This document shows, piece after piece, positions 2,041 through 51,680 of a DNA stretch of 64,000 nt. The stretch comes from Eledone cirrhosa. Lineage: Eukaryota. Every line of letters begins with the position of its first letter. Within the stretch, counting starts at the first letter, position 1. A model generated the notes under the pieces. That model worked only from the letters and a program-made list of their open reading frames with translations, did not search any database and was not told the DNA's origin. The stretch is taken from assembly GCA_964016885.1 (NCBI GenBank), contig OZ024742.1:242482001-242546000 (forward strand). The letters are read 5' to 3'. The translations under genes were made by a program, and so were the position numbers.

Positions 2041-2246
2041 GTGAGAAAAACCACAGACCCTCCATCTCAACTCTACTTTTGAAAAGCAGAAGAACTGCGA
2101 AACCGGTAAAGGAACCAAGTAAATATTTTTTTTTTTTAAATAAGACTCCAGTTGCATTTTCGATTTCATCTTTTTTTCTCTATACTTTCACTCGTGCAGG
2201 ACACCTCGGTTATTTTTCATTTTGTAAAAAAAACCTCACTTTCTAA
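2041..2246 (+). mobile_element. Solo pLTR-like repeat carrying a variant hammerhead; same family as the palindrome at 16925-17339
   Basis: Near-identical to 17136-17358; flanked by (TG)n/(TA)n. Confidence 0.7.
2076..2111 (+). ncRNA. Minimal type-I hammerhead ribozyme, U3-A8 core variant
   Basis: ctt-TTGAAAA-gcag(aagaa)ctgc-GAAA-ccgg-TA-aag; palindromic stem III ACCGGT; stem I only 3 bp in this copy. Confidence 0.6.
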
Positions 2247-2659
2247 TATATATATATATAGACGACCAGTCTACGATTTCCCGCCTTCACTATACACCAA
2301 CGTATTTATGGGTCACTTTCACGACCTTTCAGACCTGTATTAGTTGGAGTGAGGTCATATATTTTATCGTTCCTGGGGTTTTTAATCATAGGAAAATGCT
2401 TCTCTGATGATCTTTGCTTTTCCATTAATATCCACGTGATATCTAATGTTTTGCAACGTGAAACTGTACAGTTAGGGCCATTTGAATAGGTAAATATTTA
2501 TATTATATTTTTTAATTTTGATTAATTTTAATTGTATATTAATTTTGATTTATTTTGAAAAATTGGTTGAATTTTACTTGTTCTACTTATCTTGATATAT
2601 ATATATATATATATATATATATATATATATATATATATATATATATATATATATATATA

Positions 2660-2853
2660 TATATATGAATGTATATATAGCGTATTTTGCAATACACTGT
2701 ATGCTTAATTAAAAGCATTTCTCCCCTGTTTGCTGAAAACTAAAGTAAGTGAGACTGTCACTACTCTAAAACAATAGCGTAAGGTCTTCGAAATGCTTTT
2801 AATTAAGCATACAGTGTATTGCAAAATACACTATATATACATTCATATATATA
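2660..2853. repeat. Inverted repeat (~60-bp arms) in a (TA)n context
   Basis: gaatgtatatatagcgtattttgcaatacactgtatgcttaattaaaagcatttc followed by its reverse complement; right arm contains GAAA-tgctt..aagca-TA, like an HHR 3' half. Confidence 0.8.
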
Positions 2854-3060
2854 TCGTTATTTCAGAGCACCAATTCTAATATATATATATATATATATAT
2901 ATATATATATATATATATATATATATATATATATATATATATATATATATATATATATATATATATATTGTTGAAAATAACCTTTTAAGATATCCCATTA
3001 AAAATTGTTTTTTGTTCGTTGTCCTGTCCACTCTTTTTAATTTACTTATATATATATAAA

Positions 3061-3208
3061 AAGGAACGATCGACTTTCGTCAAATCGGTCCGGGAAACAA
3101 AGTTTCCATTGGTCTTCTAATTGCTAATACTATCTATCGGGCGCAATTCCAGGTAGAAGGAGCAAGTGAAATAAAGTGTCTTGCTCAAGGACATAATCGC
3201 CTTCACTT
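3061..3208 (-). mobile_element. tRNA-derived CORE-like SINE, head internally deleted
   Basis: Reverse complement matches 50143-50364, including gtccttgagcaagacacttt. Confidence 0.75.
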
Positions 3209-3234
3209 TATATATATATATTATATCATATATC

Positions 3235-3730
3235 AGGTCGAGCTTGCTCGGCCTTCTACGACACGTTTCCTCCATCCATCTCTGTCTCTCATAGCGTTTG
3301 CCAGTTCTTCCGCAGTGCATCCAGTATCGTCCTCACGTTGCTTGACGTATGTCTTCTTGGGATGACCAGCGTTTCTTGCTCCATGAGATGGACTCCATAA
3401 CAATACATCGCCTGCTATTTCTTCCTTGCTGCGCCAACAGTGGCCAGCAAATCTGAGTCTCTGTTTACGTAGTGACTTGCTGATAGGTGGTATATTGCCA
3501 TAGAGATCCTTATTTGTTGGGTGTTCCTAACAAGATACGTTTAAAGCAGCACGGAGCATACGTGTGTATGCCCTGTCTAGCTTTTTCTCCAGTTTTGACG
3601 TTAGCGTCCAAGTGATAAACAAGCACAGATTCCACAGCAGCTCTGAAGAAATTCCTTTTCAGTTTGGCCGGCAGGTTTGATTTCCATATTTTTTCCATTG
3701 CATTCAATGCTCCCCAGACTTTTCCCAAAG
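3235..3730 (-). mobile_element. RTE-clade LINE 3' fragment (post-RT C-terminus), frameshifted
   Basis: KIWKSNLPAKLKRNFFRAAVESVLVY, then RLRFAGHCWR..LLWSPSHG in a shifted frame; ends in TA-rich sequence. Confidence 0.75.
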
Positions 3731-3857
3731 GTATATATTGAGTTAGAAAATCAAAATAGTCTCTTACAATAAAATAGCTCTAGGAAAGAGATTTTTCCGA
3801 GCCGTGTATTATAATTGAATATAAAAGAAAAACGAACACAGATATATACATATATGT

Positions 3858-4038
3858 GTTCAAATCGTAAGGGACCAGATTCGCTAAGGTGAAAAGAATA
3901 CACGCTGTGTCCTTGAGTAAGACACTTTATTTCACGTTGCTCCTTCTACCTGGAGTTGCGACCGATAGATAGTTTTAGCAAATGGAAAGACCAATGGAAA
4001 CATTGTTTCCTCGGTCCGATTTAACGAAAGTCGATCGA
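3858..4038 (+). mobile_element. CORE-like SINE, degenerate copy
   Basis: gtgtccttgagtaagacactttatttcacgttgctcc... matches 50143-50364. Confidence 0.75.
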
Positions 4039-49434: not shown

Positions 49435-49495
49435 TATTCGATTATATATATTTCAAGGGTACCAAAATTTGGGCACACTCTCATCAGATAAAATA
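49435..49495 (-). ncRNA. Type-I hammerhead (family of 12971-13036)
   Basis: Reverse complement: tattttat-CTGATGA-gagtgtgcc..ggtaccctt-GAAA-tatata-TA-atcgaata. Confidence 0.72.
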
Positions 49496-50142
49496 CAAAG
49501 TTTGTTTTATAAATATTGATATAACCAAGAAAAGATACCTTGCCGGTTCAAGTTTTTCCTGGATAATGAAGGAAAAGAGAAGAAACGTCAGATATTTCAA
49601 ATTATTAAGATGAGTATGCAAATGAGGTGAGGTATAGGGCTGAAAAAACGTTATTTTAGACGCTATGCAGAATTTAAATAATTAGAATATATGTATGTAT
49701 GGGTAGGAAGAAGAAAAAAGAAAGAAGAGCTTGTATTTACGTTAATTTAAAAGGAATTAACAATTTGCAGGAATGGTGGAATATGATTCCAGAATTTAAA
49801 ATTTATTTAGCTATATTATGTGTTATAATATTGTATATATAATCTATTAGATTATATGAAGAATTATGGTTGTAAGTAGATTTTATCTTATTACATTACA
49901 ATAGTTTCTAAGTATATACATATCTATATAGATTAATAACGTGTTTTTTTAATGTAAAATGCAGAATCAACATGTTTCGTAACTCATATGACAAATGTAA
50001 ACAACTAATAATTGTCACTTATGTCTATTTCTATAATACTTATACATGCACAATTATTAATCTATATAGATATTTATTTATTTACAACCTGTACATATAT
50101 ATATATATATACATATATATATATATACATATATATATACAT

Positions 50143-50364
50143 AGTGAAGGCGTGTGGCTGAGTGGTTAGAGAATTGGATTCGCAATCGTAAGGTTGTGAG
50201 TTCGATTCCTGGACCAGGCGATGCGTTATGTCCTTGAGCAAGACACTTTATTTCACGTTGCTCCTTCTACCTGGAGTTGCGACCGATAGATAGTATTAGC
50301 AATTGGAAAGACCAACGGAAACATTGTTCCCTCGGTCCGATTTGACGAAAGTCGATCGTTCCTT
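50143..50364 (+). mobile_element. Full-length tRNA-derived CORE-like SINE
   Basis: A-box tggctgagtgg, B-box gagttcgattcc, CORE-like gtccttgagcaagacactt, TA tail. Confidence 0.82.
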
Positions 50365-50451
50365 TATATATATATATATATATATATACAAAAGCAGATG
50401 TGTATACATATATTTATATATACATAATATATATGGGAATTTGTGTATGCG

Positions 50452-50757
50452 TACTGGACTCACGATCGTAGGGTCATGAGTTCGATTCCCAGACTGAGCG
50501 GTGTGCTATTCTCATAAGCAAGACACTTTATTTAACATCATACCAGTCACTTAATCTGACACAAAAATGAGCTGTCCGTGTCGCTCTCTATATCATGCTG
50601 AATCTCCCTGAGAACTACTTTAGTGGAATACTCTGTTATAATACTCCCGGAGAACTACGTGTCAGTGGAATACTCTGTTAGTTGCACATTAATATCACGT
50701 TTTTACCCGTTGATCTAATTAATTGGAGAACGCGTGGTTGGAAACGATGGAGGTCTA
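50452..50757 (+). mobile_element. CORE-like SINE, second subfamily, 5'-truncated
   Basis: Matches the reverse complement of 27863-28170. Confidence 0.8.
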
Positions 50758-50963
50758 TATATATATATATATATATACACACATACATACATACATATAT
50801 ATATGTATACACGTATATATATTGTAAAGAGTCGGGACTCGACGGCTGAGCTGCTCTTGCGATTATAATATAACCATACTCTACTATCCCAAGTATCGAG
50901 TACTCTGTTGAGTAATGGTCTAACCAGTTTCAAACGGAATTCATCCTTATTTATATATATATA

Positions 50964-51374
50964 GTGTTGCTGTATGGGTCTGAGACTTGGACACTGACCA
51001 AGAGACTCACTCAGATGGTGGATGGGTGCTACACGAGAATGCTGAGGATGGCTCTGAACATTAATCAGTATACACTGAGGATGAAAAACTCAGTGCTGTA
51101 TGGGAGCATCCCAAAAGTCAGCTCAAAAGTGACACAGAGGAGACTGAGGTTGGCTGGACATGCTCACCGTCATCCAGAGTTGACATTGCACTCAGTGCTC
51201 CTTTGGGAGCCCCTACATGGACACACTAGAAGAGGAAGACCAAGGTTAACATATGTTGATGCCCTAAGGACAGACACTGGTCTGTTGGAGATGCAGGATA
51301 TGGCAGCGATAATGAGGGACAGAGACCGCTGGAGAGAACTCGTCCATGGATCTCGGGAATTTTACCCGCCTTAG
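50964..51374 (+). mobile_element. RTE-clade LINE 3' end
   Basis: LLYGSETWTLT..YTRMLR..RRLRLAGH..R.RGRP..DRDRWR. Confidence 0.85.
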
Positions 51375-51507
51375 ATAGATAGATATATAATATATATATA
51401 TATAAAGCGGACGTAAAATGATGATGAAGATGATGATATTTATAGGTTAGAACACTGGAAGGTAATATCCATAGTGGTAGAGCACTCAGTCCATGGGACG
51501 AGTTTGG

Positions 51508-51680
51508 TAGAAGTAGTAACACAACAGTTAGTTCTCCATACCGAGAACAATTGTTTCACTTTAGCGGATCCTCAGTTCGGACAGGTCATGGTTATCCATG
51601 ACCTGTCCGAGCTGAAGATCCGCATAAGGTGAAACAATTGTTCTCGGTATGGTGAACTAACTGTTGTGTTACTACTTCTA
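51508..51680. repeat. 173-bp palindrome with an intact-core HHR on each strand (51541-51580 -, 51607-51647 +)
   Basis: + strand: ccgag-CTGAAGA-tcc(gcataa)ggt-GAAA-caattg-TT-ctcgg; - strand: ccgaa-CTGAGGA-..-GAAA-caattg-TT-ctcgg. Confidence 0.85.

What the first reader, a model, noticed from the sequence alone, without database searches (positions are those of the whole stretch)
2076..51647. About 20 intact or variant hammerhead ribozymes from roughly 10 different repeat families within 50 kb
Seen: complete type-I folds (stem I, CUGANGA, stem II, GAAA, short stem III, UH, stem I') at 12614, 12971, 21999, 30623, 33482, 34886, 36451, 36789, 40093, 40651, 43677, 45851, 46318, 49243, 49435, 51541 and 51607 on both strands, plus 3 U3-A8 variants and ~6 degenerate copies. 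Established: PLE pLTRs carry minimal HHRs. Inference: roughly half of these have no adjacent cognate ORF, so solo ribozyme units spread on their own, and a read-through transcript of either strand would meet a potential self-cleavage site every few kb.
Basis: partly seen in the sequence, partly recalled or inferred. Interest (0 to 1): 0.75.

Follow-up and report, generated by a model that had tools for sequence, protein, structure and literature searches.

The report
Penelope transposon ends carrying hammerhead ribozymes
The roughly twenty self-cutting-RNA motifs in this stretch are real, but most are leftover tail ends of Penelope-type jumping genes and a few are short non-coding repeats likely copied by those genes' enzymes; the stretch is typical of a genome estimated to hold some 300,000 such motifs, and lone copies are predicted to cut poorly.

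Summary
The hammerheads are real: 14 strict CUGANGA folds against a mean of 0.06-0.08 in shuffles. At least 15 families are present. So most 'solo' units are not self-spreading. The window is not special: 40 evenly spaced 10-kb stretches give 11 motifs per 100 kb (window 22; P about 0.16), i.e. roughly 1.3-5.9 x 10^5 genome-wide, about 20 times the density implied by the published axolotl count (different descriptors). Most motifs have a palindromic stem III predicted to need a dimer partner, and only two tandem pairs here have one, so cleavage every few kb is doubtful. No host exon was found; seven myosin gene bodies were poorer (5 in 224 kb). Cleavage and expression are untested. Known classes; the scale was not found in the papers searched. 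This scan noted the same system before on other DNA of this genome.

The parts
2076..2111 (+). U3-A8 hammerhead (UUGAAAA, palindromic CCGG), 3-bp stem I; truncated 3' end of a coding PLE family
   Evidence: ORF ends about 0.9-1.1 kb upstream in 3 of 30 family loci
2394..2483 (+).
   Evidence: array in L043
9315..9408 (-). Decayed hammerhead (core CUCAUGA) at the 3' end of PLE-A
10919..12441 (-). PLE-A ORF remnant, 5'-truncated, Hydra-type linker CxCX5C
12614..12687 (+). Hammerhead in the inverted 3'-end arm (12442-12849) of PLE-A; predicted cut after 12683
12971..13036 (-). Hammerhead 1.4 kb downstream of the PLE-B ORF (TATATA palindrome)
14451..16443 (-). PLE-B ORF end (14451-15068) abutting a PLE-C fragment (15309-16443, 88% to 38444-39396)
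16610..16904 (.). Divergent pair of PLE 3' ends whose hammerheads share two core changes (G8A, A14U); family majority is canonical
   Evidence: 31 of 46 matched copies CUGAUGA/GAAA; ORF upstream in 5 of 6 long copies
17063..17206 (.). Divergent pair of U3-A8 hammerheads (17063-17100 minus, 17171-17206 plus)
19401..21632 (+). PLE-E, near-complete broken ORF with GLKF, DKG and Cys linker (Neptune-like by motifs)
21999..22035 (+). Minimal hammerhead (GUAC palindrome) 370 nt downstream of PLE-E
   Evidence: same spacing in L395
30626..30684 (+). Hammerhead of a PLE-B-type 3' end, stem I mismatch; no cognate ORF upstream here
   Evidence: ORF 1.3-1.4 kb upstream in L076, L379; upstream UTR collinear with PLE-B
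30867..31478 (+). PLE-D endonuclease remnant (GIY-YIG)
33490..33527 (+). Hammerhead with GUCC/GGAC stem II; 3' end of a Hydra-type PLE with a 1.9-kb 3' UTR
   Evidence: ORF at that spacing in 7 of 8 long copies; RWR, DKT in L364, L367
34886..34941 (-). Hammerhead, truncated PLE 3' end
   Evidence: sense ORF upstream in 20 of 30 loci, mostly ending about 280 nt away
36451..36521 (+). Hammerhead (UGCGCA palindrome), truncated PLE 3' end, same family as 40093
36789..36844 (-). Hammerhead 1.27 kb downstream of the PLE-C2 ORF; decayed second copy at 42172-42238
38119..40043 (-). PLE-C2 ORF remnant, 5'-truncated
40093..40165 (-). Hammerhead, truncated PLE 3' end
   Evidence: ORF ends about 1 kb upstream in 5 of 30 loci, all among the long copies
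40468..40875 (+). About one unit of a ~430-bp ORF-less retrozyme; hammerhead 40651-40693 (CUAG palindrome)
   Evidence: tandem spacing 425-435 in 5 loci
43091..44032 (-). 1.8 units of a 533-bp ORF-less retrozyme; intact hammerhead 43677-43757, G8A copy 43144-43224
44501..45454 (+). PLE-F ORF remnant (Hydra-type linker); no own hammerhead found before the 467-bp array
45686..46586 (+). 1.9 units of a 467-bp ORF-less retrozyme; hammerheads 45851-45895 and 46318-46362, the one intact same-strand pair
   Evidence: (15-copy array in L375)
46681..47568 (+). PLE-G ORF remnant of another lineage
48800..49375 (+). ~575-bp unit from (TG)n to (TA)n with hammerhead 49243-49289; no ORF link found, status unresolved
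49435..49495 (-). Hammerhead related to the PLE-B-type ends (88% to 30658-30715); ORF link inferred, not shown
   Evidence: 0 of 7 close copies with ORF
51541..51647 (.). Divergent pair of PLE 3' ends (51541-51580 minus, partly decayed; 51607-51647 plus)
   Evidence: sense ORF upstream in 11 of 30 loci, mostly ending about 200 nt away
52398..52852 (+). PLE-H endonuclease remnant

Best explanation
The motifs are type I hammerhead folds at the 3' ends of Penelope-like retrotransposons, mostly Hydra-type, and in short ORF-less tandem repeats (retrozymes) that are likely mobilised by the same enzymes; lone copies are predicted to be mostly inactive because their fold favours a dimer. Shown from sequence: family identity, fixed 3' ends on (TA)n, variable 5' truncation, divergent two-armed insertions, ORF linkage or its absence, density. 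Inferred: a PLE RT/GIY-YIG protein cuts (TA)n and reverse-transcribes from two fixed sites just 3' of the ribozyme, so every insertion, however short, carries the ribozyme; this is why ribozymes pile up without ORFs. Inferred: cleavage happens in tandem or multimeric transcripts, where two palindromic stem III halves pair, releasing unit-length RNAs that may circularise. The window is an ordinary, somewhat PLE-rich sample of a genome saturated in this way.
For: Shuffle control 14 vs 0.06-0.08. PLE ORFs cover 16% of the window vs 5% of random stretches. ORF upstream at a family-specific distance: 20/30, 11/30, 5/30, 3/30 loci, 7/8 and 5/6 long copies. Retrozyme families: ORF within 2.5 kb upstream in only 2/147, 2/73, 2/58 matches, without a shared distance across independent loci; arrays up to 15 units; longest ATG ORF 20 and 27 aa in the 467- and 533-nt monomers; monomer folding z -11.7 and -5.5. 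Family copies end on (TA)n at two preferred sites; (TA)>=4 within 350 nt downstream of 50 of 67 sampled motifs vs 26 of 67 upstream; opposite-strand pairs 11 divergent to 1 convergent. Hydra motifs CxCX5C, RW(K/R), DKT match PMC8557442 section 11, which also reports (TA)n targeting and HHRs. Two RT start sites and extension of both strands are shown in vitro for another PLE (PMC11167929, passages). For the 467-nt pair the active dimer fold is 12.3 kcal/mol better than two active monomers and 2.9 above the MFE. Density: 45 in 40 stretches, 22 in 20 neighbouring stretches; P(>=14 per 64 kb) about 0.16.
Against: No cleavage, transcript or circle was observed. Which PLE moves each retrozyme was not identified. 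The 49243 family has no ORF link in 4 long copies, and the 49435 link is inferred. Loci came from the 40 best-scoring matches of each search, so fractions are not unbiased. A few motifs have a longer stem III (34886, 43677, 49243 family) and might cut as monomers. Nearest-neighbour energies ignore tertiary contacts. The density estimate rests on 400 kb from six contigs and is overdispersed (11 of 45 from one array).
Confidence: 0.85

Rival explanations
1. One reading: about half of the motifs are solo ribozyme units that spread as independent non-coding elements.
For: Three ORF-less tandem families here are young and abundant (983, 1971 and 2474 first-look candidates); 16 of 20 motifs have no cognate ORF next to them; 49243 may be a further short element.
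Against: 11 of those 16 belong to families that continue into a PLE ORF elsewhere, 10 shown and 1 inferred. The ORF-less units end on (TA)n like PLEs and encode nothing.
Confidence: 0.15
2. Lone hammerheads are active in host or read-through transcripts (as monomers, or as dimers in trans with retrozyme RNA), so they cut pre-mRNAs and are selected against in genes.
For: 5 motifs in 224 kb of seven myosin gene bodies vs about 25 expected (bootstrap P 0.013, Fisher on stretches P 0.052). Xenopus retrozymes are reported depleted in introns (bioRxiv 2026.07.22.740005).
Against: No strand bias (3 sense, 2 antisense). (TA)n targets are also 2.3-fold rarer in those genes. Stretches within a gene are not independent. 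Published minimal HHRs showed no monomer cleavage and low dimer cleavage (PMC4209133); 8 of 9 Xenopus dimers did not cleave; no RNA-seq reads ended at the anole PLE HHR site.
Confidence: 0.15
3. The window is a local hotspot or a functional ribozyme cluster.
For: About twice the genome-sample density and three times the PLE ORF content.
Against: P about 0.16 for >=14 motifs in 64 kb drawn from random stretches; flanking 200 kb has 11 per 100 kb; families, ages and strands are mixed; no host exon detected.
Confidence: 0.05
4. Chance matches in AT-rich, microsatellite-rich DNA.
For: The U3-A8 descriptor gives chance hits, including six in a satellite in L078.
Against: 14 vs at most 2 in 200 shuffles; different families use different stem I sequences and different palindromes around the same core; each motif lies in a multicopy family.
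Confidence: 0.01

Closest known systems
Minimal type I hammerheads in pLTRs of metazoan PLEs (Cervera and de la Pena 2014, PMC4209133; parts 1-2 of 4 read)
   Same: Same core, short palindromic helix III, U3-A8 variant, many sequence families per genome, mostly single copies 'probably related to truncated PLEs', opposite-strand pairs 100-700 bp apart.
   Different: Counts there are thousands per genome (about 2,000 + 1,300 in Schistosoma, 4,000 coelacanth, 9,000 Xenopus); here an estimated 1.3-5.9 x 10^5. Many motifs here keep a 2-4 bp stem III and long stem II.
Hydra clade of PLEs (Craig et al. 2021, PMC8557442; passages and section 11 read)
   Same: CxCX5C linker, RW(K/R) and DKT motifs, C-terminal endonuclease, HHRs, insertion into (TA)n, inverted 5'-truncated arm.
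   Different: Described as a small number of mostly short (<3 kb) families; here the clade is abundant and some 3' UTRs reach 1.9 kb (element about 5 kb). PLE-E and PLE-G belong to other lineages.
Metazoan non-LTR retrozymes (Cervera and de la Pena 2020, PMC7229834, passages and Discussion; Li et al. bioRxiv 10.64898/2026.07.22.740005, parts 1-3 of 5)
   Same: Non-coding tandem units of low GC (36-37%) with one type I HHR each, structured monomers, monomers to multimers, co-occurring PLEs; U.U at the base of stem II and 1-bp stem III with palindromic tetraloop as in the axolotl motifs.
   Different: Units of 430-533 bp are above the 170-400 nt RNAs of the 2020 paper, though within the 51-972 bp range of the preprint; expression and circles untested here. 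Axolotl: 126,247 motifs in a 28-Gb genome, about 20 times sparser, counted with another descriptor.
PAc Poseidon element of Anolis (PMC11167929; passages read)
   Same: Two fixed 3' ends and two-armed insertions fit its two internal RT start sites and extension of both strands.
   Different: Another clade; there the HHR overlaps the ORF start, and was dispensable for insertion in vitro.

Membership tests
Type I hammerhead ribozyme (PLE-type) | Core C3UGANG8A9 (or U3-A8), GAAA and UH at a three-way junction | tested here: met
   17 of 17 named sites plus 3 U3-A8
Type I hammerhead ribozyme (PLE-type) | Stems I-III, ends joined in stem I, above chance | tested here: met
   14 of 17 pass the strict descriptor vs 0.06-0.08 in shuffles; 3 fail, 2 pass with defects
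Type I hammerhead ribozyme (PLE-type) | Short palindromic helix III suited to dimers | tested here: met
   perfect palindrome in 10 of 14 strict hits; self-duplex more stable than hairpin for all 13 loops scored, marginal for 33488
Type I hammerhead ribozyme (PLE-type) | Loop 1-loop 2 tertiary contacts | not tested
   no 3D or covariation analysis of the loops
Type I hammerhead ribozyme (PLE-type) | Self-cleavage at UH | not testable with these tools
   needs an assay
Rfam hammerhead families | Gathering score | tested here: not met
   0 hits at gathering; HH9 38 bits vs cut-off 52
Penelope-like elements, Hydra clade | RT followed by C-terminal GIY-YIG endonuclease | tested here: met
   (by similarity to P0001-P0128; Pfam GIY-YIG only for PLE-D)
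Penelope-like elements, Hydra clade | CxCX5C linker, RWK and DKT motifs | tested here: met
   CxCX5C in PLE-A, B, D, F; RWR and DKT in L364, L367, L371
Penelope-like elements, Hydra clade | Insertion into (TA)n, inverted truncated arm, one-sided tail | tested here: met
Penelope-like elements, Hydra clade | Phylogenetic placement of the RT | not tested
   no named reference sequences in hand; no tree built
Non-LTR retrozymes | Tandem non-coding units, one type I HHR per unit | tested here: met
   467, ~430, 533 bp; not met for the PLE-end motifs
Non-LTR retrozymes | Expressed as linear and circular monomer RNAs | not testable with these tools
   needs RNA data

The most novel reading that the evidence does not exclude
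This is the most hammerhead-dense animal genome on record (about one motif per 9-11 kb), held in check by a dimer lock; abundant retrozyme or PLE RNAs can supply the missing half in trans, so lone copies in host pre-mRNAs are cut, and this has shaped where the elements survive.
Probability: 0.1. Interest if true: 0.85.

Novelty: new member of a known kind. Interest (0 to 1): 0.45.

Why it matters
The elements are known kinds, and the window is not a special cluster. What may matter is scale and testability: an estimated few hundred thousand hammerheads from dozens of families, missed by Rfam at its cut-offs, give the statistical power to ask the open question of what PLE hammerheads are for (intact vs dead cores among mobilised copies, sense vs antisense in introns). 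The family sorting also warns that 'solo ribozyme' counts mostly measure 5' truncation of coding elements, not independent ribozyme replicons.

Tried and rejected
Rfam: nothing at gathering; the E-value list was swamped by microsatellite miRNA models. The repeat finder was swamped by (TA)n. A possible new core variant (CUGAUAA...GAUA at 16610/16822) was rejected: the family majority is canonical. Monomer active-fold probabilities were all low but have no positive control, so they are not used as evidence. Two MAFFT alignments of hammerheads misaligned the short motifs, so no formal pair count was run. Expression: no RNA holder listed; contigs of four runs of unrecorded kind were laid on 43095-46580 and say nothing on expression; their depth is no copy number. 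Host gene: 102 of 357 non-repeat ORFs >=55 aa in the window and 200 kb of flanks gave only transposon domains and one sub-threshold DUF hit; this does not exclude small exons. The intron test covers 224 kb of seven genes, fewer than planned, so it is underpowered. Lunse et al. (RNA Biol 14:1499) is not held; only its title was seen in a reference list, and it or unseen supplements (PMC8557442 files S1-S2) may already count cephalopod motifs. Literature searches for hammerhead with octopus, cephalopod, mollusc, squid or retrozyme listed no paper reporting this density; the O. vulgaris repeat paper has 0 occurrences of 'ribozyme'.
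Full report
Setting. The window is G000:C3:242482001-242546000 of a 3.0-Gb animal genome. A crude mask removes about 20 kb as simple repeat. That the animal is an octopus-like cephalopod is an inference (mollusc and Octopus proteins among the PLE hits; earlier notes of this scan); I did not test it.

Observation. Shuffles give a mean of 0.08 (100 global, max 2) and 0.06 (100 local, max 1); the reversed window gives 0. The other three named sites have the core but weaker stems: 33482, 51541, 51607. 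The three U3-A8 motifs are copies of one family with UUGAAAA in 28 of 28 scored copies. Searching with family copies adds a further CUGAUGA motif at 2394, about nine decayed copies and two pairs of half-hammerheads, for at least 15 families. Across families the core is constant while N7 takes all four bases, stem I sequences differ but pair, and stem III uses different palindromes (CUAG, GUAC, CCGG, UAUAUA, UGCGCA, CAAUUG, CUAAUUAG, CUGUACAG). Rfam reports none at gathering score.

What the motifs belong to. tblastn with 124-128 PLE proteins finds nine ORF remnants. PLE-E has GLKF, DKG and a Cys linker, Neptune-like by motifs; PLE-G is another lineage. For ten families I took 30 loci each, the best matches of the search and including the window's own copy. 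A sense ORF lies upstream in 20 of 30 (34886), 11 of 30 (51541/51607), 5 of 30 (36451/40093) and 3 of 30 (U3-A8) loci, mostly at a family-specific distance. Two families with long 3' UTRs needed 10-kb fetches of their longest copies: ORF at the expected spacing in 7 of 8 (33490) and 5 of 6 (16610/16822). The 30623 family links to a PLE-B-type ORF at 1.3-1.4 kb (L076, L379); 49435 is related to it, but 0 of 7 close copies showed an ORF. Three families never link: the 467-, ~430- and 533-bp units are tandem and non-coding, with arrays up to 15 units and strongly folded monomers (z -11.7, -5.5). The 49243 family starts at a (TG)n run and showed no shared upstream sequence in 4 long copies.

Insertion signature. 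In the four families examined for it, copies end on (TA)n at two preferred positions 60-115 nt apart and are variably truncated at the 5' side. In 600 kb not selected for hammerheads, (TA)>=4 lies within 350 nt downstream of 50 of 67 motifs (26 of 67 upstream), and opposite-strand pairs are 11 divergent to 1 convergent. This matches the inverted arm and one-sided tail of PLEs (PMC8557442 passages) and the two internal RT start sites with extension of both strands shown in vitro for the anole element (PMC11167929 passages). Because copying starts just 3' of the ribozyme, even the shortest insertions carry it (inference).

Is the window special? No. Forty evenly spaced 10-kb stretches from six contigs hold 45 motifs (11.3 per 100 kb; shuffles 0.4 in total), the flanking 200 kb hold 22, the window 21.9 per 100 kb. 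Bootstrap: 3.4 x 10^5 genome-wide (95% 1.4-5.9 x 10^5), or 2.6 x 10^5 (1.3-4.1) with one 11-copy array collapsed; P(>=14 in 64 kb) about 0.16. Published counts: thousands per genome (PMC4209133) and 126,247 in axolotl (PMC7229834; genome 28.2 Gb), about 20 times sparser, though counted differently.

Would a transcript be cut every few kb? As sequence, 13 motifs lie on + and 8 on -, with gaps up to 10 and 18 kb. Ten of the 14 strict hits have a perfect palindrome; all 13 stem III words scored are more stable as self-duplex than as hairpin. For the natural 467-nt pair the active dimer (-175.5 kcal/mol) beats two active monomers (-163.2) and is near the MFE (-178.4). Only this pair, and 43677 with a G8A partner, have a same-strand mate here; in the unselected sample 21 of 67 do. 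Published single minimal HHRs did not cleave and dimers did so weakly; 1 of 9 Xenopus dimers cleaved. No host exon was detected among 102 of 357 candidate ORFs. Seven myosin gene bodies held 5 motifs in 224 kb, about 25 expected (bootstrap P 0.013; Fisher P 0.052), 3 sense and 2 antisense, but (TA)n runs are also 2.3-fold rarer there. This is a hint of genic depletion, not proof of activity. The pair at 16610/16822 shares two core changes in both arms, which suggests that an RNA with a dead core was copied (or that the arms were homogenised later), in line with the HHR being dispensable for insertion in vitro.

Comparison and novelty. PMC4209133 already describes single motifs from truncated PLEs, opposite-strand pairs and the U3-A8 core; PMC7229834 and the 2026 preprint describe retrozymes and propose PLE mobilisation. 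The elements are new members of known kinds. The density was not found in the papers listed, but Lunse et al. could not be read. Earlier notes of this scan reach the same picture on other DNA of this genome; they are not independent support. Verdict: observation confirmed, interpretation partly supported, interest 0.45.

Noticed in passing
window 16610-16904: Both arms of a divergent pair share G8A and A14U; A14U alone occurs in 3 other loci and G8A alone in 1, suggesting dead-core RNAs are mobilised.
   Followed up: partly
window 22721-22840 and 35206-35362: Divergent pairs truncated inside the hammerhead, leaving only the GAAA/UH half; the first belongs to a U3-A8 family with a long stem III (L060, L090).
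   Followed up: partly
window 47932-48303: Repeat with a hammerhead-like UUGAUGA...GAAA-UAUAUA segment; two other copies (L057, L042) also lack a canonical core.
   Followed up: partly
window 57664-61734 (minus): LINE remnant with AP endonuclease and zf-RVT domains.
   Followed up: no
window 23409-24242 and 55523-55939: 93-bp and 39-bp minisatellites without hammerheads.
   Followed up: no
window 5191-5360, 7135-7319, 7843-7988, 55326-55523: Very abundant ~170-bp SINE-like repeat (over 120 overlapping matches among fetched loci).
   Followed up: no
window 17531-18036, 32266-32661, 42517-43026: Three copies of a ~500-bp repeat that ends at (TA)n and has no hammerhead match.
   Followed up: no
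window 15304: A PLE-C ORF fragment is joined directly to the PLE-B ORF end: possible template switch or recombination.
   Followed up: no
L394:9564-L395:2170: A little-decayed PLE-E-family ORF with its hammerhead lies in sense orientation inside a myosin gene span.
   Followed up: partly
L043:7427-9502; L077:245-3387; L372; L251: Further retrozyme arrays: 485-bp, 310-bp (11 copies) and a 595-bp U3-A8 unit.
   Followed up: no
L049:127-3438; L043:306-3408: Helitron (Rep/PIF1) and an LTR-retrotransposon pol remnant in the right flank.
   Followed up: no
window 43095-46580, runs X5 and X6: Two other coded organisms hold pieces of both the 467- and 533-bp units at 90% identity or more, but not the PLE-F ORF between them.
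   Followed up: no
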